NCBI GenBank assembly: GCA_964016885.1 | Contig: OZ024742.1 | Location: 203,422,001 to 203,486,000 of the forward strand | Source: Eledone cirrhosa | Lineage: Eukaryota | Length of the DNA stretch: 64,000 bases | Direction of reading: 5' to 3' | Part shown: one piece after another, positions 17,276 to 58,484 of the stretch | Layout of the letters: every line of letters starts with the position of its first letter | Position numbering within the stretch: the stretch's first letter is position 1 | The notes under the pieces: model-generated | Database searches by the model: none | Told to the model about the DNA's origin: nothing | Seen by the model: the letters and a program-made list of their open reading frames with translations, nothing else | Made by a program: the position numbers and the translations under genes

Positions 17276-17335
<60 letters not shown>

Positions 17336-17513
17336 CGTTTCTGAATTTGTTTAGCAAGATTCTTTATCTGAAATCGTGTGTTGAAACCGATATTGTTGCC
17401 AATAAGAAACACACGCATCAGTTGCTTTCACTTCAATTTATTATAATAAACTTATAAATTTATAAATTTCTGGTTGGTTGTTTGGTTCCACAACCAGATA
17501 GTTGTTTATATAT

Positions 17514-17558
17514 AGTCATAGTTCTTTCGTCACACACTCTGTGACCTCTTCAGTGACT
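17514..17558 (-). ncRNA. Minimal type I hammerhead ribozyme (pLTR)
   Basis: Minus strand reads agtca CTGAAGA g gtcaca gagtg tgtgac GAAA g aa c TA tgact: stem I agtca/tgact, stem II gtcaca/tgtgac, very short stem III. Confidence 0.7.
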
Positions 17559-17758
17559 GGGGATTCCTTTCTTTGTTTCTGTGCCTCTCCTTTGTTCTGT
17601 CCTACGCCATTTTGTTTCTGTGTGTGTGTTGTGTGCTCAGTCTGCGCATGCGCCACATCCGGGTGTCTGCGTGTGTTTATGTTCATTTATTTATTTGTTT
17701 ATTTACATGTTACTGGTTGGTTGTTTGTTCTATGTGTGAGTGTGTTTTCATTTTGTCC

Positions 17759-18120
17759 TTAATTGTAAGTTGTGATGTTGCTGTTCCACTCATATTCTCT
17801 ATTTAATTTTGGTTGTAATTCTTTTATGTTTATTGCCTCTGTAATTTGTCTAAACATTGCGTCTTTTCTGTGTGTAGATTCTATTTTTATTTCTATATAC
17901 TCTAATTTACCCTTGTGTTCTATTTTAGCATGTTGGTAGAGTACAGATGATTCTTTACTATCTTGAAGGTCTCGCCAGTGTTCATTTATCCGTTCCCCTA
18001 CACTACGAGCTGGCTCACCTATGTACACTATTTTTTTGTCTCTACATTGTCCTTCAGTACATCTTATGCTATACACTACATTTCTAGTTTTACAGTTAAT
18101 ATGGGGGCTTATTTTACAGG
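17759..18120 (-). pseudogene. GIY-YIG endonuclease C-terminal fragment of a Penelope-like element
   Basis: Translation CKTRNVVYSIRCTEGQC...YIGEPARSVGERINEH...RQITEAINIKELQPKLNREYEW contains VVY/YIG motifs and conserved R, H, E and N residues. Confidence 0.88.
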
Positions 18121-18176
18121 TTTATGGCGTAGGACAGAACAAAGGAGAGGCACAGAAACAAAGAAAGGAATCCCCT

Positions 18177-18219
18177 GTCACTGAAGAGGTTACAGAGTGT
18201 GTGACGAAAGAACTATGAC
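18177..18219 (+). ncRNA. Minimal type I hammerhead ribozyme (inverted pLTR copy)
   Basis: gtca CTGAAGA g gttaca gagtg tgtgac GAAA gaac TA tgac. Confidence 0.65.
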
Positions 18220-18390
18220 TATATATAAACAACTATCTGGTTGTGGAACCAACCAACCAACCAGAAATTTATAAATTTATAAATTTATTATAAATTTATT
18301 ATAATAAATTGAAGTGAAAGCAACTGGTGCGTGTGTTTCTTATTGGCAACATGACCCTCCCAAAGTATAACAATATATATATATACATAT

Positions 18391-18624
18391 ATAGGAAAAT
18401 GTTCAAGACCCCGACGCCAGAGCTCCAGCCGTTTCGACCACTATTTCTGGACTAAATTACATTTTTAGAAAAAATCTAATTTAGTCCAGAAATAGCCGTC
18501 GAAACGGCTTGGACTCTGCCGTCGGGGTCTTGAACATTTCCCTATTACCCACTCTACAACCCTAAGTATTGAGTACTCTGGTGAGTTATGGTCCACCTGG
18601 TTCCTTACCACACTTCCTTCGTTA
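18391..18624 (+). mobile_element. Fold-back element, GACCCCGACGG family
   Basis: Hairpin 18391-18545 with longer arms (to ctggactaaatt) plus the shared tail ccctaagtattgagtactctggtg...ttccttcgtta. Confidence 0.8.
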
Positions 18625-19383: not shown

Positions 19384-19866
19384 TCTCTGGTTCATATTGT
19401 TACACATGTACACACATACACAGATATTTAGATGATAAAACTGTGGTATCTTGTTTATTCCCTTATGTTCGTAGGTAATTGTACTATAGCTCCTAGACTG
19501 AGTTCGCTAACTTCATTAGATTGAAGAACAATAACAGTGCAGATGCACGCACGTCTTGCAGCCTTGATATCCTGTGATTCTCTTCAGTTTGCACAAGTTT
19601 GACTGTAATATCTTTCTTTCATGCTTGCGTGCAACTATGCCTAGTTTAACCTACTTCTGACGTCAGAATCTATATCAGACTCCACCTGTCACACACACAT
19701 ATATATTATAAATGAATATACATATATATTCTATATTAATATATATATATATATATAAATATATATTTCGTATCTCCAAAGAAATACAGTTTTAGGAAGC
19801 CGTAGCTATACAAACACCGGGGGGCTAACTCCCTCTGGCGATGTCTAGCAGAAGCAAGGGGGACAA

Positions 19867-19908
19867 CCGTCTATGCATTTCAGGCTTAACTGGCCTTCGT
19901 CAGGACGG
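19867..19908 (-). ncRNA. Minimal type I hammerhead ribozyme
   Basis: ccgtc CTGACGA aggc cagttaa gcct GAAA tgca TA gacgg: stem I ccgtc/gacgg, stem II aggc/gcct, palindromic stem III ATGCAT, predicted AUA cleavage site. Confidence 0.85.
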
Positions 19909-20231
19909 TCCCTCCCACCGCTTGCGACTGCTGGACTAGAAGACAGCCGAGAATATATACATTTCTCGTCTGTGTAAATGAGGTGATTAATCTCATTTGC
20001 ATATGAAGCTGCATAAGTTGGCTCAAATTATAATAAAAAAGAAATAGGATTTCGCTTCAAGCATAGCTTTATAGATTATATATAAATATTTCGTATCTCC
20101 TTTTTATTATAATTTGAGCCAACTTATGCAGCTTCATATGCAAATGAGATTAATCACCTCATTTACACAGACGAGAAAAGTATATATTCTCGCCTGTCTT
20201 CTAGTCCAGCAGTCGCAAGCGGTGTGAGGGA

Positions 20232-20273
20232 CGGTCCTGACGAAGGCCAGTTAAGCCTGAAATGCATAGACGG
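20232..20273 (+). ncRNA. Minimal type I hammerhead ribozyme (inverted copy)
   Basis: cggtc CTGACGA aggc cagttaa gcct GAAA tgca TA gacgg; one stem I mismatch. Confidence 0.8.
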
Positions 20274-20514
20274 TTGCCACCTTGCTTCTGCTAGACATCG
20301 CCAGAGGGAGTTAGCACCCCATCCCCCACCCCCGGTGTTTGCATAGCTACGGCTTCCTAAAACTGTATTTCTTTGGAGATACGAAATATTTATACATATT
20401 GTATAAAGCTGTGCTTGAAGCGAAATCCTATTTCTTTCTTTTTTATATATATATATATATATTATACAGTATATATGTATTGGGAAATGTATGCGTGCGT
20501 GTTTGAGCGTCTGC

Positions 20515-21354: not shown

Positions 21355-22790
21355 CCAGGTTTTGTTGACCTCACCAAAGATTGGAGTTATGCAAGGGGAA
21401 TGGCCCCAGCACCAACCTCTCTATCTTCCCTCTCTTGACTCTCACCTATGCGTTTCAGACTTGCGATGTTGGTGTGTATCTGCGTTTCAGTACCATGGTT
21501 AAGGTCCTTAACTAGACACGCTTTAGGACCAAAACAAAGACTTTTCAGTCATTCATCAGAGAGCCGTTCTATGCTGACGATGCAGACCTTGTTCCTCATA
21601 CCGTGGCGGACAGGCAGGCAATCATGGACCTGTTTTCTGGGACAAGCACTGCTTTCAGGATTACTGTCAACACAGAATGTATACACTACCTCCCGAGTAA
21701 CATTACGCCCAACATCTTTCTTCACGGTCAGAAGTTGAAGCTTATTGACACATATGTCTACCTTCGTAGTGCTCTCTCCAGAGATGGTTCATTGGCCTCT
21801 GAAATCAAACTAAGGACCGAAAAAGCCAGCAAAGCATTCAGTAAGCTGGAGGGACGAGTCTGGTCGGACAGGGGCATCTCATTTGGCAGTAAGATAAGTG
21901 TCTACCAATCCTGAGTCTTGACTACTTTCTCTTGGACACTTCTGAGACTTGGACCACATCCCGACATCATATCAAAACATTGGAAAGATTCCACCAAAAA
22001 TGCCTAAGGAGTATTTTGAACATTAAGTGGCAGTTATTTACACCTGCCACCGTTGTTCTGCAGCGGAACAATACATCCAGCATAGAAAAACTACTCATTC
22101 AAATCCAATTGCTTTGGCTAGGGCATCTAAGGCAAATTGGATATGGAGAGTTGCCTAAGCGAATTTAGTATGCAGAGTTACCCCTTGGTAAACGCCCCAA
22201 ACACAAATCCAAGAAACATTTCGTCAAAGACAATCTGAAGACACTTGGTATTAATATTGATGTTTGGGAAGAAGAATCAGAGAGTAGATCTGGTTGGAGA
22301 AGTCTGGTTTATAATGTCTGTGATCGCTTTGAGGTCAAAAGGACTGTACATTCAGTGTTTAAAAGAGCACTCAGAAAAGGTGATGTTGACTCAGACCCAG
22401 AGGATATCCGATTGGAGCATGTTTGGAACATCTGTAGAAAGGCTGTTCTTTCTCGTGCTGGGAATATTTGTCATTTAAGAGCTCACAGAAATCAGCAATC
22501 TGAGGCTGATTATGTTGATGTCTTCCCTGAAAAACCTGTGAGGTATTCCTGTGAGATTTGCAACAACGCCTGTAGGTCTGCTGCTGAACTCAAGCGGCAC
22601 ATGAGAGTGCATAAGGGGCAAGTTAAATTCAGGATTATCTGGGAGCCTCATGTGTCCCACATTTGTAAAACTGTTTGCAAAAGTGGGGCAGGTTTGTGGA
22701 GTCATTCGCAAGCTCATGGCCGTTCAACACAACCTCAAAGAGATGACTCTCTTCTGTAAGGAAATGGCAGTTAACACATATGCACATTCG
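21355..22790 (+). mobile_element. 5'-truncated, degenerate RTE-clade LINE (RT C-terminus plus C2H2 zinc-finger tail)
   Basis: FYADDAD at ~21567, then EIKLRTEKASKAFSKLEGRVW, SETWT...LERFHQKCLRSILNIKWQ and CEICNNACRSAAELKRHMRVH; multiple stops and frameshifts. Confidence 0.88.
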
Positions 22791-29656: not shown

Positions 29657-29953
29657 TCTGGAGGGAAGGAAGGAAGGAATCACCTGTGATTAAACCTACT
29701 GATAGATGGGCTCCAGCAAGTTTAAATGCACAAGGTATACTGCTTGTATGCGACAAAGGCGCCCCTGCAACTTCCTTAAGAGTCTATTGGTCCTGTCAAT
29801 TGTTATGCTGCACACACACACACAATATGGTTATCTACCAGTAATCTGTTCCATATAACTATATTTTTCTTTTAGTACAAACTTAAAGTGGGGTCTAAAT
29901 AACTAAAACTGGCAGATGTCTCCATGTAGTTTGGTTCTGCTTTACTAAGGGCG

Positions 29954-30937
29954 TTATCTTCTAACATACAAGTATTTAAGGAACACGCCGAGTACTACGA
30001 TAACGCCCTTAGTAAAGCAGGCTACCTCAACAAAATAGAGTATATAGATGAGAACAATCAAAACACCCAAAATAAATCCCACATAGGTAGATATAATAAC
30101 ACAACACCAAACCACACTTACTACCATAGTATACACACCAGTAAACCAACAAACAAAACTAATAGAAAGCGATGCAAAGAGTACTTATGGTATAACCCTG
30201 AATACAATAGTTCCATTAGTACAAATTTACCAGTACTCTTCTTTAAAATAATTAAGAGACATTTTCCTACATCACACAAATACCACAAAATCCTAAACCC
30301 TACCACTATAAGACTGTCATACTCTACAGCGTTAAACCTTGAACAACACATAAAAAAGATCAATACTAGAAGGTTAAACGAAAACACTAAAAACTTAAGT
30401 ACAAAGAACACAAAAAAAACAGTAGACAATACACTACAGAACATAAATAAACCACACCTAAGTTCGTCCGCAATACTACTCCAGAGAAAACCCAACGTAC
30501 ACAACTGTAACTGCACCTATCCTGACAACTGCCCCCTCGGCAATAACTGCCTGGAAAAAAATATTATTTATAAGTGTACCATTAAATCCGGAGGCAACGA
30601 GTGGTATTACGTGGGATCAACGGCAACATCGTTTAAATCTCGATTATATAGGCATTCTTACTCAATAAAACACCAGAGCCAAAGAAATGTAACAACTTTA
30701 GCAGAAAAAGCTTGGACGCTCAGGGATAGCGATCAAAAGTTTACCCTAAAATGGGAGAAATTTGCTAAAACCCAAAGCTTTTCCAGGAGCCAAAATTTCT
30801 GCAAATTGTGTAATCTTGAGATCTATTACATAATCACACACAAGATGAAATTGCTGAATAACAGAATTGAACGAACATTTTTCTGCCGTCACCGAACTAA
30901 AACCCTTTTTTCCCACTACAAGCTGAATATTACATAA
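29954..30937 (+). pseudogene. 3' part of a Penelope-like ORF (RT thumb/linker plus GIY-YIG), 5'-truncated
   Basis: One frame appears open from LSSNIQVFKEHAEYYDNALSKAGY through LWYNPEY, KRHFP, RLSYS, CNC..CPLGNNCLEKNIIYKC, YVGSTATSFKSRLYRH, CKLCNLE and LLNNRIE..CRH. The ORF track shows only the part from 30611 because there is no upstream start codon. Confidence 0.88.
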
Positions 30938-32026: not shown

Positions 32027-32283
32027 AAAACAAGATGGCGTAGGACAGAACAAAGGAGAGGCACAAAAACAAAGAAAAAAATCCCCAGTCACTGAAGAGG
32101 TCACAGAATATGTGACGAAAGAACTTTGACAATATATGAACAATCATCTGGTTGTGGAACCAACCAACCAACCGGAAATTTATAAATTCCTAAATTTATA
32201 AATTTCATTTATAATAAATTGAAGTGAAAGCAACTGGTGCGTGTGTTTCTTATTGGCAACATGGCCCTCTCAAAGTATAACAA
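32025..32283 (+). mobile_element. Solo pLTR of the 17336-18373 Penelope-like family, with hammerhead at 32088-32130
   Basis: Near identity to 18124-18373; gtca CTGAAGA g gtcaca gaata tgtgac GAAA gaac TT tgac; TA flanks. Confidence 0.8.
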
Positions 32284-35884: not shown

Positions 35885-37584
35885 ATGGCCGAAGCTTCTT
35901 CACCAAAATTCGAAGGAGGAAAGGGGAAGATAAACTTACAGCTTCTCCCTGCCACTGTCACATTAGCAGAGGTCAAGAAGAAAGGTCAGCCAGAGGAAGA
36001 ATTCTCTCCACCTGTTAATCAACAACTTGACGTTGTCATGGCAACAACCCAAAGAACCAGCGGCACCAGCAACAGCAACAACAACAACAATGCGACGGAC
36101 GAAAACAACACCAATAACAATAACAACAACAAGACCAATAACGGTGACAACAACAACAATGATAACAACAACACCACCAACGACAACAACAACACAAACA
36201 AACAAAATTTCTCCTTTGCCGAGACGACAAGGAAAACCCTCGACTATCTGCCAGTAGATATAACCAAAGCGAAGGAGCTACTGGCAGATGCGAAAAAATA
36301 TATAGTGTACGGAGAAAATGGTTCATTCACAATCCCCCCCCCCCACCCCCACCCCCCCGGAACTAAAAAGCCAGAGACTCCTAAACACGGTCATGTTTAG
36401 GACAATCTCGAACAAAAGTAAAAAGCCAGCTCAACCATCACAGAGTGAGATAGAGCTGGTTTTAAAAGAAGGACATCACCTTCATTCAGAAGGATAGACT
36501 CTACGGGAGTCTATCCATTCTCATGAAGGACAGGGACACAGCAGTGAAACTGTCCATCAAACCAATCACATCCACCGCATACACCTTCTACCCTACGTAC
36601 ATGGGTAGAAGAACACAAAAAATAAAAATCCACACCATCCTGCCGATTATGGACATATGGTGGGTTTTGACAGGTTTCCTGGACCTGGAGGATGACATGC
36701 TGGTGTCCATGGGAAAGGCATCGGGTGACGCGTTCAGTGGAACGAGCCTCGAACTTGTAGTTCAAATGAGGCCCGAAAGGATCGCCCAGATCCCTGAACG
36801 CGTCATACTGGATGATCTATCCTTCATCAACATTACCGTTGAGGGTAGACGGCCCTCGTATTACCTCTGCGGAACCAGAGGTCACCTGAGGGCTGTCTGT
36901 CCCCAACTTAATAAGAAAACCCCAATCCTGCCTACACCACCAACAACTGCACAACCAACACAATCACCACAACTACCACTACAAAAACAACCACCACAGC
37001 TCAAACCAAAACAAAACAATGTCCAACCCATCCTCTCCACTCAAAAAACAAAAACAATTTCCAAAACACCCGCACCGCAAACACAACCCGAAAATATACC
37101 CCTCCCATCCAACGCGGAAGATGACCCTAGTTCGTCGTCAGACGAGGAGGAGCACTTCCACACAATCAAAAGAAAAAAAAGAAAACACACCTCAGACACA
37201 CAAATGAAAACAACCCCTCCCCAAAACATGACACTGACACCAACACAAAAGAGCTCACAACAACAGCAAACAAAAAACACCACACAAAAACAAAAACATG
37301 CATACACATACATAAACACAAGAAACAAAAAACTGTTAAACATTGTGTACAACAACAATCTAATAAAAACACAAGGGCCTAACTTCACCCAGGCAGGGGA
37401 TTTCCCCCACCTCAAAATGATTAAGGCCCCACAGGACACCTATAAAACTTTAAAAAACAATTTTAAAGAGGACGTGGGTCCCCCCTGCGTCGGGCCCATT
37501 AACCGCGTCCTCCTAAAAAAACTACCCCACCCCCTCCCCAAACCCCCACACAACTCCAAGCTCCCCAACCACACAACACACTGA
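35885..37584 (+). pseudogene. LINE ORF1 (gag-like), interrupted between ~36340 and 36520
   Basis: ORFs 35885-36400 and 36523-37584; ITVEGRRPSYYLCGTRGHLRAVCP is a degenerate CX2CX4HX4C knuckle; low-complexity N/T/Q/P tracts. Confidence 0.75.
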
Positions 37585-37705
37585 TGCCCCTACACTTCAA
37601 CAAACCACCACCCCACCCAACAACCCATCCCCCACCCTAATGGAAATTGTGCAGCCCGATACCCGGGACGCAGAGAGGTAAGTGCCTTTTCTCTTCACCA
37701 CCAAC

Positions 37706-40700
37706 ATGGCTATGCTAAGAGTAGGCTGTTTAAATGCGCGTGGCCTGGGCTCAACTTGGAAGCAAGCAATGCTTCTAAATGACCTCAGGTCACAACGTAT
37801 AGATGTGATGGGTATTTGCGAGGCCCGGATCAGCAACGTGCGACAGCTGGCCCCCACCTTTGATGACTTTGAGATGCACGCATCTCTGTCAGCCCGGAGG
37901 TGGGGGTGGAGTTGTCGTTCTGCTGCAAAAACATCTGGGTCTCGCAACACTACTACGTAGGGGCCTGCCTCGATAGAGAGGGGTGTAATAGCCTCAAAGG
38001 GTTAATCGGTCGATTTGACCTGGCCGATAGATATCGACTAGATTTTCCGACTGCGCCAACCTGGACTTGGGCAAATCGTAGCGGATCATCTAGGTCGTAC
38101 CTAGATAGGTTCTTAGTTAGAATTAAGGATAAGGACTTTTTAAGTTGTCCAAAAATGCGCATGGTTGGCTATTCAGACCACAAATTAGTGACCTGCATGG
38201 TCAACCTTGACAGAACTCATAGACAGGGACCCGGTTACTGGAAGCTCAACTTGTCCTTACCGGCAAGTAAGGCTTACAGGAACCGGATTAGCACTTTAGT
38301 TAAGGAGCGGTTGACGGGCGCCATCGTCAACAGCAGGTGGTGGGGATCTCTCAAAAGAGAGATTAGAGTAGTCTCGATAGAATTTAGTAAGGAGTTAGCC
38401 TCAAATAGAAATAGGAAGGAAAGGGAGTTGGTAGATAGTGTAGAAGAGGCAATTAGAAGCGGCGACGTGGCCAGAGTGCTAGCGTCGAGAACGGCCCTGG
38501 GCCAGTCCTTCGACGCGAAACACGAAGGCTGCATCGTCCGAAGCAAAATACGTGCTCTGGGAAACGAGGGGACCAAAGCTGTTAGCTGGGCCCGCGTGAC
38601 AGAAGCCAAAAGATGGGAGCAGATCCACTATCCGGTCTTTGCGAGACCAGGATGGACGGGTGATCCTTGAACCTAAGCAGATGTGCGAGGCTTTTCAAAA
38701 GCACTTTGCCGGATTGTTCGGAAGGGGCGGGGGGCCGGTTGGAGACGTAGACTTCGGTCCATACCTCGACGGCCTGCCGCGTCTCTCGGACAGGGAGGCG
38801 AAGTCCTGCGAGGAGCCGATTTCAGCCGCTGAGATAGAGGACGTGCTGAGCCAATGCGGCAAACGCAAATCCCCGGGTCTCGATGGTCTTCCATACGAAC
38901 TATATCTAGCTATGCCGGACTTGTTCCCCGATCTCCTCGAGGCGGTCTACTGTAACTGGCAACAGAACGGGAGAATTCCCTGTGCTGTGACCAAGGGCGT
39001 AGTCACGATAGTGAGGAACAACGAGAACAAGGGAGACGATATAAATAATTTCAGGCCCATAACTCTGCTAAATACAGAGTTACAGGTTTTGGTCAAGGTG
39101 CTAGCAAAGAGGTTGGCGCTTGTCGTGGGCAACCTGGTGGGAGATGCGCAGACATGTGCTATCCCGTCCAGGTCCATCCACGATAACCTCCACCTCATGC
39201 GATACATCATAGAGAGGGTTGGGAACGAACCCGGCTTTGGTGGGGCCCTGATCAACTTGGATCAATCTAAGGCATTCGATAGGGTCGACCATGGTTACCT
39301 GGATGCGGTGCTAGCGGCGGCAGGCTTCGGACCCGTTTTCAGGGGCTGGATCAATGCCATGCACAGCAGCCGCATCTGCTCTAGGGTCAAGGTGAACGGC
39401 TACCTCTCGGAGCCGTTCGAAATCGCGCGGTCCATCCGACAGGGGTGCCCTCTCTCCTCCCTTCTGTATGTAATGACTCTAGAGTCACTGCTGCGGAAGT
39501 TGGAGTTGTTGCAGGGCATCCCGTTGGAACCGGGATTGCGGAAAGCGGTGTCAGCCTACGCCGATGACGTAACAGTAATGGTGTCGACGGCCTCGGAAAT
39601 CAGGGCGATCGGCACCTTACTGGAGGAGTACGAAAGGTTTACAGGGGCTAAGCTGAACCGTGACAAGTCGATCGGTCTGCAACTCGGCACGTGGAGGGGC
39701 AGATCGATGCCCTCCGATGGCGTCGTCGGGCGCTGGACGGAGGGCCCGGTGAAGTTGCTCGGGGTCTGGTTCGGACCAGACCTCCAGGTGGAGAAGAACT
39801 GGGGTGAGGTGACGAACAGGGTGTTTGCACTGACCCAGAAGTGGGCCGAGTGCAAACTGTCCCTGAAAGGACGGGCGGAGGTGGCGAACACTTATATAGC
39901 GTCCGTCATCTACTAACGCCTGACCGTTGTGCCTTGCCCAAGGGAAACGCTCGCCAAAATGGAGCGCGCACTCTTCCAATTCCTTTGGAAGAAGCGGGCT
40001 CCTATGGTGAGGAGATCCATCTGCTGTCAACACCCTTCGAAAGGAGGGCTGGGGATGCCGTGGCTAATGATACGTAAACACGCATTAAGGCTACGGCACC
40101 TTCAGGTATTCCTCTCCGATCAACCGGTGTGGGCCCCGTTTGTGAGGCGAGCCTTTCCCAGACTCGTCTCACTCACCGAGCTGCAATCCTGGGTCAAGCA
40201 AAGACCGAGAAAACTGGGCGCCTGGCACACCGAGTGTGCCCAGGAACTCACGGCTCTCTGGCAGGCGGACCCGGCTGTCAGTGGAGAATCCACCTCGTCA
40301 TTCTATAGAGGGCTGGTGGTTAGCAGGTGCGACGACGCCCTCTGAGAAGCCCTAGGCATGGAGGAAGACGAACTGGCCAACCTGTTCGTTAGGACATTCA
40401 GCCCGGGACCCATGGATAACTTCCAGAGGTCCCTGGCCTGGCAATGCTACAGAAGGGCTCTGCCCGTTCGAGAAAGGCTCTACAGACACGGGCGCCCGGG
40501 TAGGGACCCATCGAAAAAGATCTGTCTCAGATGCGTGTGCGACGAGGAAACCGTTGCACACGCATTGGTACACTGCTCGGGCATTGCCGATCTGTGGGGT
40601 TATGTCGAACAACTGCTGTCAAGGGTGGGACCAATCCGGTTGACCACCGAGTCTATTGTAACGATCAAGCCGCCTCCCCTCTTCAAAAACGAAGGAGAGG

Positions 40701-40939
40701 CGGTGTTTCTGTGCGTAATAGACATGGCGAAAGAGGTTGTATGGTGGACGCGTCTGAAAGGACTGAGGTCAGACACCTTTCTCTCTGGCCAACAACTGGT
40801 CCGTTTCTTCCGATATCATTTCGGAAGAAGGATCAGGATGGAGAGAGAGGTGCTGCACCCCAGCCGTTTCTATGAAAGATGGGTGAAAGTGGCGAGAATG
40901 GCCCGTGTGAATGGGCCTTCACTCTACATCAGACTATAG
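37706..40939 (+). pseudogene. LINE ORF2: AP endonuclease plus reverse transcriptase plus C-terminal CCHC, disrupted
   Basis: Motifs CLNARGL, SYLDRFLV, SDH; SPGLDGLPYE, RPITLLN, DQSKAFDRVDH, RQGCPLS, YADD; CLRC..ETVAHALVHC. In-frame stops end at 39916 and 40345, a frameshift lies near 38615, and the middle of the endonuclease appears deleted near 37945. Confidence 0.93.
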
Positions 40940-46324: not shown

Positions 46325-46360
46325 TTACGACGTTTCGGACAAAAGTCCTTCATCAGTAGA
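46325..46360 (-). ncRNA. Minimal hammerhead core (Penelope-type remnant)
   Basis: Minus strand CTGATGA a ggac tttt gtcc GAAAC GTC; stem I pairing is weak. Confidence 0.6.
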
Positions 46361-46682
46361 GAAGGGGGGAACACCGAGAGGGAGTTCGGAAGGGGAGTTA
46401 GCAGGAAAAACAAATATATATATATTCTTTTACTCTTTTACCTGTTTCAGCCATCCGGCTGAGGCCATGCTGGGGCATATATATTAATACGTACACACAC
46501 ATAAATACATACATACGTATACATATATACATTTATAGATATATATACAAACATATATACATTTATATAAATACATACATATATGCATACACATCCACTT
46601 CCACAAAGCGTGAACCTAATGTAACTGTACAATTGTCTCCTGTGTTTTGTTCGTTCATTTTCAACTATATAAATATATACAT

Positions 46683-57849: not shown

Positions 57850-57850
<1 letters not shown>

Positions 57851-58429
57851 CGTTTCTGAATTTGTTTAGCAAGATTCTTTATCTGAAAACGTGTGTTGAA
57901 ACCGATGTTGTTATACTTTGGGAGGGTCATGTTGCCAATAAGAAACACACGCACCAGTGAATCACTTCAATTTTTTATAATAAATTTATAAATTTAGGAA
58001 TTTATAAATTTCCGGTTGGTTGGTTGGTTGGTTCCACAACCAGATGGTTGTTTATATATTGTCAAAGTTCTTTCGTCACACATTCTGTGACCTCTTCAGT
58101 GACTGTGGATTCTTCTGTTTGTTTTGTGCCTCTCCTTTGTTCTGTCCTACGCCATCTTGTTTTTGTGTGTGTTCACACACACAAAAACAAGATGGCGTAG
58201 GACAGAACAAAGGAGAGGCACAAAAAACAAAGAAAAGAATCCCCAGTCACTGAAGAGGTCACAGAATGTGTGACGAAAGAACTTTGACAATATATAAACA
58301 ACCATCTGGTTGTGGAACCAACCAACCGGAAATTTATAAATTCCTAAATTTATAAATTTATTATAAAAAATTGAAGTGAAAGCACTGGTGCGTGTGTTTC
58401 TTATTGGCAACATGACCCTCCCAAAGTAT

Positions 58430-58433
<4 letters not shown>
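57850..58433. mobile_element. Non-coding fold-back copy of the Penelope-like pLTR, with two hammerheads (58061-58103 -, 58246-58288 +)
   Basis: Arms ~57907-58172 and 58175-58433 are reverse complements, near-identical to the pLTRs at 17336-17610 and 18124-18373. Confidence 0.88.

Positions 58434-58484
<51 letters not shown>

What the first reader, a model, noticed from the sequence alone, without database searches (positions are those of the whole stretch)
19763..20443. Hammerhead-bearing ~323-bp unit as two inverted, circularly permuted copies (retrozyme-like)
Seen: the left copy is one unit plus a 15-bp terminal redundancy (atatttcgtatctcc ends at 19777 and 20100). The right copy starts at a different phase, matching 20040 back to 19763 and then continuing into the complement of 20085-20035, so it crosses the unit junction. 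Each copy has a complete CUGACGA/GAAA core with a palindromic ATGCAT stem III, and there is no ORF. Known: metazoan non-LTR retrozymes and Penelope pLTRs carry minimal type I hammerheads that cleave as dimers and can yield circular RNAs. Inference: the insert was copied from a circular or multimeric RNA with a fold-back step, which would make this a small ribozyme retroelement inserting into (TA)n as a palindrome.
Basis: partly seen in the sequence, partly recalled or inferred. Interest (0 to 1): 0.85.

Follow-up and report, generated by a model that had tools for sequence, protein, structure and literature searches.

The report
Hammerhead retrozyme with Penelope insertion footprint
This is one back-to-back insertion of a common, protein-free jumping repeat that carries a predicted self-cutting RNA; its ends match those left by Penelope-type retrotransposons, which likely copy it, and it carries a DNA motif shared with the host's small-RNA genes that would let it switch itself on.

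Summary
In detail: two inverted, phase-shifted copies of a 323-bp unit in (TA)n, each with a type I hammerhead. It is one of more than 1,400 copies in G000. Of 108 loci, 82 are head-to-head; where both outer ends could be classed, 50 of 55 pair one short end with one ~40-nt tail, while inner ends vary. Coding Penelope-like elements (PLEs) of the same genome do the same (7 of 7), and this is the published PLE footprint. So it is an animal non-LTR retrozyme, likely pasted by a PLE enzyme. Simple fold-back fails (32 of 50 arm pairs are not nested). Rare variants are shared between arms only in register, which favours a linear multimer over a monomer circle as direct template, unless gene conversion explains it. 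Upstream of the ribozyme lies a 12-mer identical to that at -77 of host U6 and RNase MRP genes, then a TATA box; other hammerhead families share it (22,814 hits, control 562). Four chimeric insertions join a retrozyme arm to a coding PLE. The partner PLE was not identified; cleavage, transcription and circles are untested.

The parts
19763..20100 (-). left arm: 5'-truncated at phase about -14, runs through one whole unit, ends at the short 3' end in (TA)n
   Evidence: (L001)
20091..20443 (+). right arm: starts at phase about 37-47, ends with the tail; 13-nt insertion near 20316-20328
20091..20100 (.). head-to-head junction; 10 bases readable into either arm
19866..19909 (-). type I hammerhead, left arm; predicted cut between 19872 and 19871
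20231..20274 (+). type I hammerhead, right arm; G:G mismatch in helix I at 20233; predicted cut between 20268 and 20269
19992..20003 (-). 12-mer identical to the -77 element of host U6 (L270) and RNase MRP (L351), left arm
19954..19959 (-). TATA box, left arm; predicted start near 19929-19931
   Evidence: start inferred from host spacing
20137..20148 (+). same 12-mer, right arm
20181..20186 (+). TATA box, right arm; predicted start near 20209-20212
   Evidence: start inferred
20383..20396 (+). short-end site (first inferred reverse-transcription start), on the 5' side of a small hairpin
20397..20443 (+). tail, about 40-45 nt, ending in the unit's T-run (second inferred start)
20029..20085 (-). 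internal copy of the tail region in the left arm, with the only run of 4 or more T on the ribozyme strand (20035-20040)
   Evidence: (I3)
19699..19766 (.). left (TA)n target flank
20444..20462 (.). right (TA)n target flank

Best explanation
This is a head-to-head insertion of a high-copy, non-coding 323-bp hammerhead repeat (an animal non-LTR retrozyme) that is likely pasted into (TA)n by the RT-endonuclease of a Penelope-like element. Shown: family size, fixed short and tail ends, random inner ends, TA flanks, hammerhead fold with compensatory changes, promoter-like motif. Inferred mechanism: (1) the internal 12-mer plus TATA box would start transcription about 25 nt before the hammerhead; loci with more than one unit give a more-than-unit RNA that again contains the promoter; (2) a PLE protein would nick both strands of a (TA)n target and start reverse transcription at two internal sites about 40 nt apart, one per strand, so that two cDNAs grow towards each other; (3) both stop at random points and are joined, often over 1-4 shared bases, giving a palindrome with a tail on one side only; (4) the template is mostly an uncut, probably linear multimer from one source locus; the hammerhead, predicted to need a dimer, is not required for the ends seen and may feed a separate pool of monomers and circles. 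This locus itself cannot yield a monomer from one transcript, because its two hammerheads lie on opposite strands.
For: 317 exact copies of a 40-nt core; 1,407 copies of a looser core, control 0. 82 of 108 loci head-to-head; 50 of 55 classed junctions are short+tail, p=2e-10. Coding PLE family g1 in the same genome: 7 of 7 head-to-head pairs short+tail, two of them in this window; a full-length g1 copy has its tail inside the ORF start (L263), as in the anole PLE where two internal RT starts define the tail and both strands are cut and extended (PMC11167929). PMC8557442 Fig. 2 describes the inverted truncated copy, one-sided tail and microsatellite bias. TA-rich outer flanks 96 of 177 against 1,408 of 20,000 random places. 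155 of 178 arms read through the cut site; 1 starts at it, 2.8 expected. Hammerhead: 5 of 12 pairs with changes on both sides over 16 sequences; the double hammerhead is the co-fold minimum, -31.7 kcal/mol. Chimeric insertions with a coding PLE arm: L151 (short + tail), L015/L109, L150, L127. Promoter-like motif.
Against: No autonomous PLE sharing the unit's ends was found: a family profile found no homology in 60 loci from two PLE protein searches, 8 longer PLE stretches or 8 loci of a third RT family, beyond the family itself and a third small hammerhead family; none of 64 free 5' ends ran into a same-strand PLE frame. g1's tail is about 58 nt against about 40 here. Chimeras could be deletions between neighbouring insertions, and L015 (tail+tail) and L150 (short+short) do not show the complementary ends. 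28 junctions had an end that could not be classed and were left out of the 55. Loci were chosen by similarity or by an intact core, not at random. No A-to-G strand bias marks an RNA step (66 vs 70). No RNA data were seen.
Confidence: 0.8

Rival explanations
1. Same PLE-driven insertion, but the direct template is a hammerhead-cut, re-ligated monomer circle on which the RT runs past its starting point.
For: Arms longer than one unit at any phase (41 of 212); 5 arms reach upstream of the predicted start of the penultimate unit; common alleles are shared between repeats within an arm (17 of 27); a young array of related family C has 3.9 units at 100% identity (L349); circles are shown for coral, mussel and axolotl retrozymes (PMC7229834). 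Circles would also explain how promoter-bearing masters are renewed.
Against: Rare alleles are shared in register (29 of 280) but hardly out of register or within an arm (4 of 259), p=1.6e-5; a circle predicts equal sharing. 9 of 14 arms that reach the penultimate predicted start region end there (rate ratio 2.5, p=0.017, window chosen after seeing the data). Gene conversion between the inverted arms could produce the in-register excess, so this is not decisive.
Confidence: 0.3
2. The second arm arises by fold-back of the first cDNA on itself.
For: The two arms share alleles far above chance (92 of 104 common alleles, 41 expected); most junctions show 1-4 shared bases.
Against: A fold-back copy must lie inside the first arm; in 32 of 50 pairs the tail-less arm reaches further 5' while the other reaches further 3', this locus included. 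5' lengths are uncorrelated (rho -0.19, p=0.19). Chimeras have arms from different elements.
Confidence: 0.06
3. The unit is only the terminal repeat (pLTR) of an autonomous PLE whose copies are nearly all 5'-truncated.
For: Same ends as PLEs; g1 leaves pLTR-only palindromes in this window (57850-58440); Li et al. 2026 link Xenopus retrozymes to pLTRs.
Against: Arms that run past one unit continue into the same unit, never into coding sequence; the hammerhead is of the canonical retrozyme type, while g1 has the minimal PLE type; four fetched full-length PLE loci lack the promoter motif in their own repeats (the one hit in L263 lies in a neighbouring family C copy).
Confidence: 0.08
4. Assembly artefact or local DNA-level inverted duplication.
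For: Palindromes trouble assemblies (PMC8557442).
Against: Arms differ by about 4%, break points differ between loci, outer ends follow a two-site rule.
Confidence: 0.02

Closest known systems
Metazoan non-LTR retrozymes (Cervera and de la Pena 2020, PMC7229834: passages, sections 13 and 17; Li, Clavereau, Pollet 2026, 10.64898/2026.07.22.740005: parts 1-3 of 5)
   Same: About 300-bp non-coding unit, low GC, canonical type I hammerhead with 1-bp helix III and palindromic tetraloop as in axolotl Amex1; PLEs proposed as the mobilising partner.
   Different: Here mostly 1-1.5 units in head-to-head pairs, not long head-to-tail arrays. The parts of those papers that I read argue the PLE link from shared hammerheads, co-occurrence and pLTR similarity; they do not describe the short/tail ends or inversions for retrozymes. 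Expression and circles are shown there and untested here.
Penelope-like elements (PMC8557442: passages; PMC11167929: parts 1-2 of 4; PMC4209133: parts 1-2 of 4), including non-autonomous Chlamys such as MRC1
   Same: Inverted 5'-truncated copy at the 5' end, tail on one end, microsatellite target, hammerhead; opposite-strand hammerhead pairs 100-700 bp apart already noted in Schistosoma.
   Different: No ORF; no pLTR homology to the PLE families examined; canonical rather than minimal hammerhead; snRNA-gene-like motif.
Newt satellite 2 (Coats, Zhang, Epstein 1994; paper not held; title and one sentence seen in PMC2220036; octamer and 330-bp size recalled)
   Same: Hammerhead repeat with an internal snRNA-type promoter.
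   Different: Reported as Pol II; here the motif matches host Pol III genes (U6, MRP) in sequence but is 3-5 bp closer to TATA, so the polymerase is open.
Schistosoma hammerhead SINE-like repeats (review PMC6765202, passages)
   Same: Promoter upstream of a hammerhead; single copies lose the ability to propagate and need tandem context.
   Different: The promoter here resembles upstream elements of U6/MRP genes; insertion ends are PLE-like.

Membership tests
Metazoan non-LTR retrozyme | canonical type I hammerhead in the unit | tested here: met
   core bases were fixed by the search pattern for most rows; no Rfam model matched
Metazoan non-LTR retrozyme | unit of 150-450 bp, GC below 50%, no ORF | tested here: met
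   323 bp; 44% GC on the columns analysed
Metazoan non-LTR retrozyme | head-to-tail tandem units with two or more hammerheads | tested here: inconclusive
   not at this locus; 15 of 178 arms span two cut sites, 1 of 212 arms exceeds 2 units; related family C has arrays of up to 6 units
Metazoan non-LTR retrozyme | self-cleavage of the RNA | not testable with these tools
   needs in vitro assay
Metazoan non-LTR retrozyme | expressed as linear and circular RNA | not tested
Non-autonomous Penelope-like element | inverted 5'-truncated copy joined at the 5' end | tested here: met
   82 of 108 loci
Non-autonomous Penelope-like element | 30-40 bp tail at one end only | tested here: met
   50 of 55 junctions; tail about 40-45 nt; control g1 7 of 7
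Non-autonomous Penelope-like element | microsatellite or AT-rich target | tested here: met
   96 of 177 outer flanks against 7% background
Non-autonomous Penelope-like element | 3' sequence shared with an autonomous PLE | tested here: inconclusive
   none found in the families sampled; most PLE families of the genome were not sampled
Host type 3 (U6-like) promoter | upstream 12-mer and TATA box as in host U6, MRP, U6atac | tested here: met
   identical 12-mer in L270 and L351; variants in L271, L272, L352
Host type 3 (U6-like) promoter | same spacing as host genes (46-48 nt) | tested here: not met
   43 nt in this family, 40-43 in most related families, 47 in L341/L342
Host type 3 (U6-like) promoter | drives transcription from the predicted start | not testable with these tools
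   5' ends of arms at phases 154-160: rate ratio 1.35, p=0.24; local post hoc test p=0.017

The most novel reading that the evidence does not exclude
This genome holds a superfamily of self-promoting retrozymes (over 20,000 copies) that have captured the host's U6-type upstream promoter and keep it through retrotransposition by being copied as more than one unit; their insertions, including chimeras with coding PLE arms, record a PLE dimer priming both target strands independently, sometimes on two different RNAs, and from uncut linear RNA rather than from the circles that the current model assumes.
Probability: 0.3. Interest if true: 0.7.

Novelty: new member of a known kind. Interest (0 to 1): 0.45.

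Why it matters
Which enzyme moves animal retrozymes, from which RNA form, and from which promoter are open points in the papers read. A family with over a thousand dated insertions carrying a readable PLE footprint, a candidate promoter with a predicted start base, and mixed retrozyme/PLE insertions turns each into a direct test. The palindrome itself is not new.

Tried and rejected
Rfam scan: only hairpin/miRNA noise, no hammerhead model. Partner search: flanks of 159 loci, hammerhead variants, sister family, two PLE protein searches and 8 longer stretches: no partner; a weak profile hit in L156 was TA repeat. The L049 neighbour is an insertion into another PLE's 3' region. T-run as Pol III terminator defining the tail: it is the only T4+ run of the unit, but 16 of 41 tail ends lack four T, and sister-family tails end before their T-run; unproven. 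RNA-editing scars: none. Pile-up of 5' ends at the cut site: none. Promoter-plus-hammerhead pattern in metagenome contigs: 6 hits, none a hammerhead, uninformative for other animals. Spacing as a Pol II/Pol III switch: the passages read in PMC1761439 show conserved PSEA-TATA spacing in insect Pol III genes but do not settle this case. The supplement of PMC7229834 could not be read and those of the bioRxiv preprint were not seen; either may already show such ends or promoter motifs.

Full report
Observation. The region holds a left arm on the minus strand (19763-20100) and a right arm on the plus strand (20091-20443), both copies of a 323-bp unit, between (TA)n tracts. Both carry a type I hammerhead: helix I of 6 bp, helix II of 4 bp, and a helix III of one pair closing the palindrome UGCA. 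The core pattern occurs twice in the window and never in 100 shuffles. The right copy has a G:G mismatch in helix I and a 13-nt insertion. Rfam models do not recognise it. Across 16 sequences from this and a sister family, 5 of 12 pairs change on both sides and 89% of cells pair, against 23-44% when partners are slid; the rows are related and most were picked on the core, so this is support, not a probability. Two copies co-fold into the double hammerhead as their minimum. Below, 'phase' counts along the unit on the ribozyme strand; the cut follows phase 214.

Family. G000 (3.0 Gb) has 317 exact copies of a 40-nt core and 1,407 of a looser core, control 0. I mapped 108 loci: the 30 best matches to the unit and 78 loci taken in positional order from the first 100 exact-core matches. 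Arms differ from the majority by a median of 3.2%. 24 of 30 and 58 of 78 loci are head-to-head pairs whose 5' ends meet; 4 junctions join 3' ends. Outer ends fall into two classes, a short end at phase about 5-16 and a tail end at about 45-57 as aligned, about 40-45 nt apart once TA blur is removed. Of 55 junctions with both ends classed, 50 are short+tail, 3 short+short, 2 tail+tail (p=2e-10; one duplicated locus counts twice); 28 junctions with an unclassed end were left out. Inner ends are spread over the unit, with gaps of -4 to 0 at 48 of 83 junctions. 96 of 177 outer flanks are TA-rich against 7% of random places.

What makes this shape. Passages of PMC8557442 describe for PLEs an inverted 5'-truncated copy at the 5' end, a 30-40 bp tail often on one end only, and microsatellite targets. 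PMC11167929 (parts 1-2 of 4) shows a PLE protein cutting and extending both target strands, starting at two internal RNA sites that define the tail, with no need for hammerhead cleavage. As a control, the coding PLE family g1 of this genome shows short+tail ends in 7 of 7 head-to-head pairs found in the fetched loci and the window, and a full-length copy has the tail in its first codons. The unit's short end lies in a small hairpin. 155 of 178 arms read through the cut site and only one starts there. I therefore infer PLE target-primed reverse transcription on both strands.

Fold-back and circle. Fold-back requires one arm to lie within the other; 32 of 50 short+tail pairs are not nested, this locus among them, and arm lengths are uncorrelated. 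Yet both arms usually come from one source: 92 of 104 common minor alleles are shared, 41 expected. Rare alleles (three or fewer other loci) are shared in register in 29 of 280 cases but out of register or within an arm in 4 of 259 (the last two sets overlap). A monomer circle predicts no such difference; a linear multimer from an aged source locus does, and so does later gene conversion between arms, which I could not exclude. 5' ends are more frequent at phases 148-180 in both the last and the penultimate unit (rate ratios 1.7 and 2.5, p=0.01 and 0.017, windows chosen after seeing the data), but five arms go further. A young family C array with 3.9 identical units fits a circle. No A-to-G strand bias was found. 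I put the linear template ahead for this family, with the circle as a live rival.

Partner. Not found. None of 64 free 5' ends leads into a same-strand PLE frame, and a family profile found no pLTR homology in the PLE loci sampled. Four loci join an arm directly to a truncated coding PLE: L151 (retrozyme short end, g1 tail, opposite strands), L015/L109 (both tails), L150 (a 53-bp piece of the unit runs into a g1-related endonuclease) and L127 (sister-family arm against another RT type). They suggest arms primed on two RNAs, but deletions between neighbours in one TA tract would look alike, and the partners differ.

Promoter-like motif. The profile also picked up family C through a shared block upstream of the hammerhead. 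The block is TATGCAAAT(G/T)AG followed by TATATA. Host U6 (L270, L271, array L272), RNase MRP (L351) and one U6atac gene (L352) carry the same or a one-mismatch element at -76 to -78 and TATA at -30; the 12-mer of the unit is identical to those of L270 and L351. It is missing at that place in two dispersed U6 copies, three other U6atac copies and all U2 genes fetched. With TATA aligned, a G falls on the U6 start base in all six repeat rows. The spacing is 43 nt here against 46-48 in host genes, and a TCAC at about -57 recalls the TCAG of U2 genes, so the polymerase is open. The pattern has 22,814 hits, control 562; 28 of the first 30 loci have CUGANGA 30-70 nt after TATA. In 30 loci not chosen on these motifs, the two boxes differ at 5 of 785 positions against 332 of 12,129 elsewhere (the boxes lack CpG). 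An internal snRNA-type promoter is reported for newt satellite 2 (one sentence and title in PMC2220036; original not held).

Comparison and novelty. Size, hammerhead type and lack of coding capacity match animal non-LTR retrozymes (PMC7229834), and PLEs are already proposed as their movers there and in the 2026 preprint. Opposite-strand hammerhead pairs were noted in 2014. Searches listed no paper describing this family, short/tail ends for retrozymes, or a U6-like element in them; unread supplements and subscription papers may. Earlier AI notes on family C of this genome (read after my own tests) reach the same reading; they are not independent support. One reports editing scars, which this family lacks; one favours a circle, which my variant test does not. 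Verdict: a real, new member of a known kind with useful mechanistic footprints; interest 0.45.

Noticed in passing
window 17334-18390: 5'-truncated coding PLE (family g1: GIY-YIG end, minimal hammerhead) with an inverted arm, short and tail ends in (TA)n.
   Followed up: yes
window 57850-58440: pLTR-only palindrome of g1 with tail left and short end right; a further g1 hammerhead at 32084.
   Followed up: yes
L263 2825-6541 (-): Full-length g1 element with a 1,239-aa open frame; its tail lies in the first codons of the ORF.
   Followed up: partly
L262, L267: Young PLE family with many near-identical 784-aa frames and an upstream 455-aa frame; my hammerhead pattern found no match in these two loci.
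   Followed up: partly
L151 1867-2740; L109 1425-3550; L150 1890-3110; L127 4276-5150: Insertions in which a retrozyme arm is joined directly to a 5'-truncated coding PLE.
   Followed up: partly
L160-L169, L171-L201: Older sister family, about 70% identical to the unit, with compensatory changes in hammerhead helices I and II.
   Followed up: yes
L310-L339, L348-L350, L266: Family C (about 466-490 bp unit, ACTAGT helix III), the bulk of the 22,814 promoter-pattern hits, with arrays and the same two fixed ends.
   Followed up: partly
L330, L342, L340, L343, L345-L347: Further repeat families with the same 12-mer and TATA; L330 and L342 have a hammerhead core behind it, the others decayed look-alikes by eye.
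   Followed up: partly
window 46340-46365 (-): Another hammerhead-like core with a 4-bp helix II in a different repeat.
   Followed up: no
window 29930-30937 (+): 335-aa frame similar to other PLE endonuclease ends in the loci; no Pfam hit.
   Followed up: partly
window 36466-40939 (+): Broken LINE with RVT_1 domain and an upstream frame; a second LINE remnant with C2H2 fingers at 21516-22759.
   Followed up: no
window 18399-18620: Very common hairpin repeat next to (TA)n, found in many fetched loci.
   Followed up: no
L295-L309: Host U2 genes have a TATA-like box near -33 and TCAG near -57, but lack the octamer within 300 bp.
   Followed up: partly
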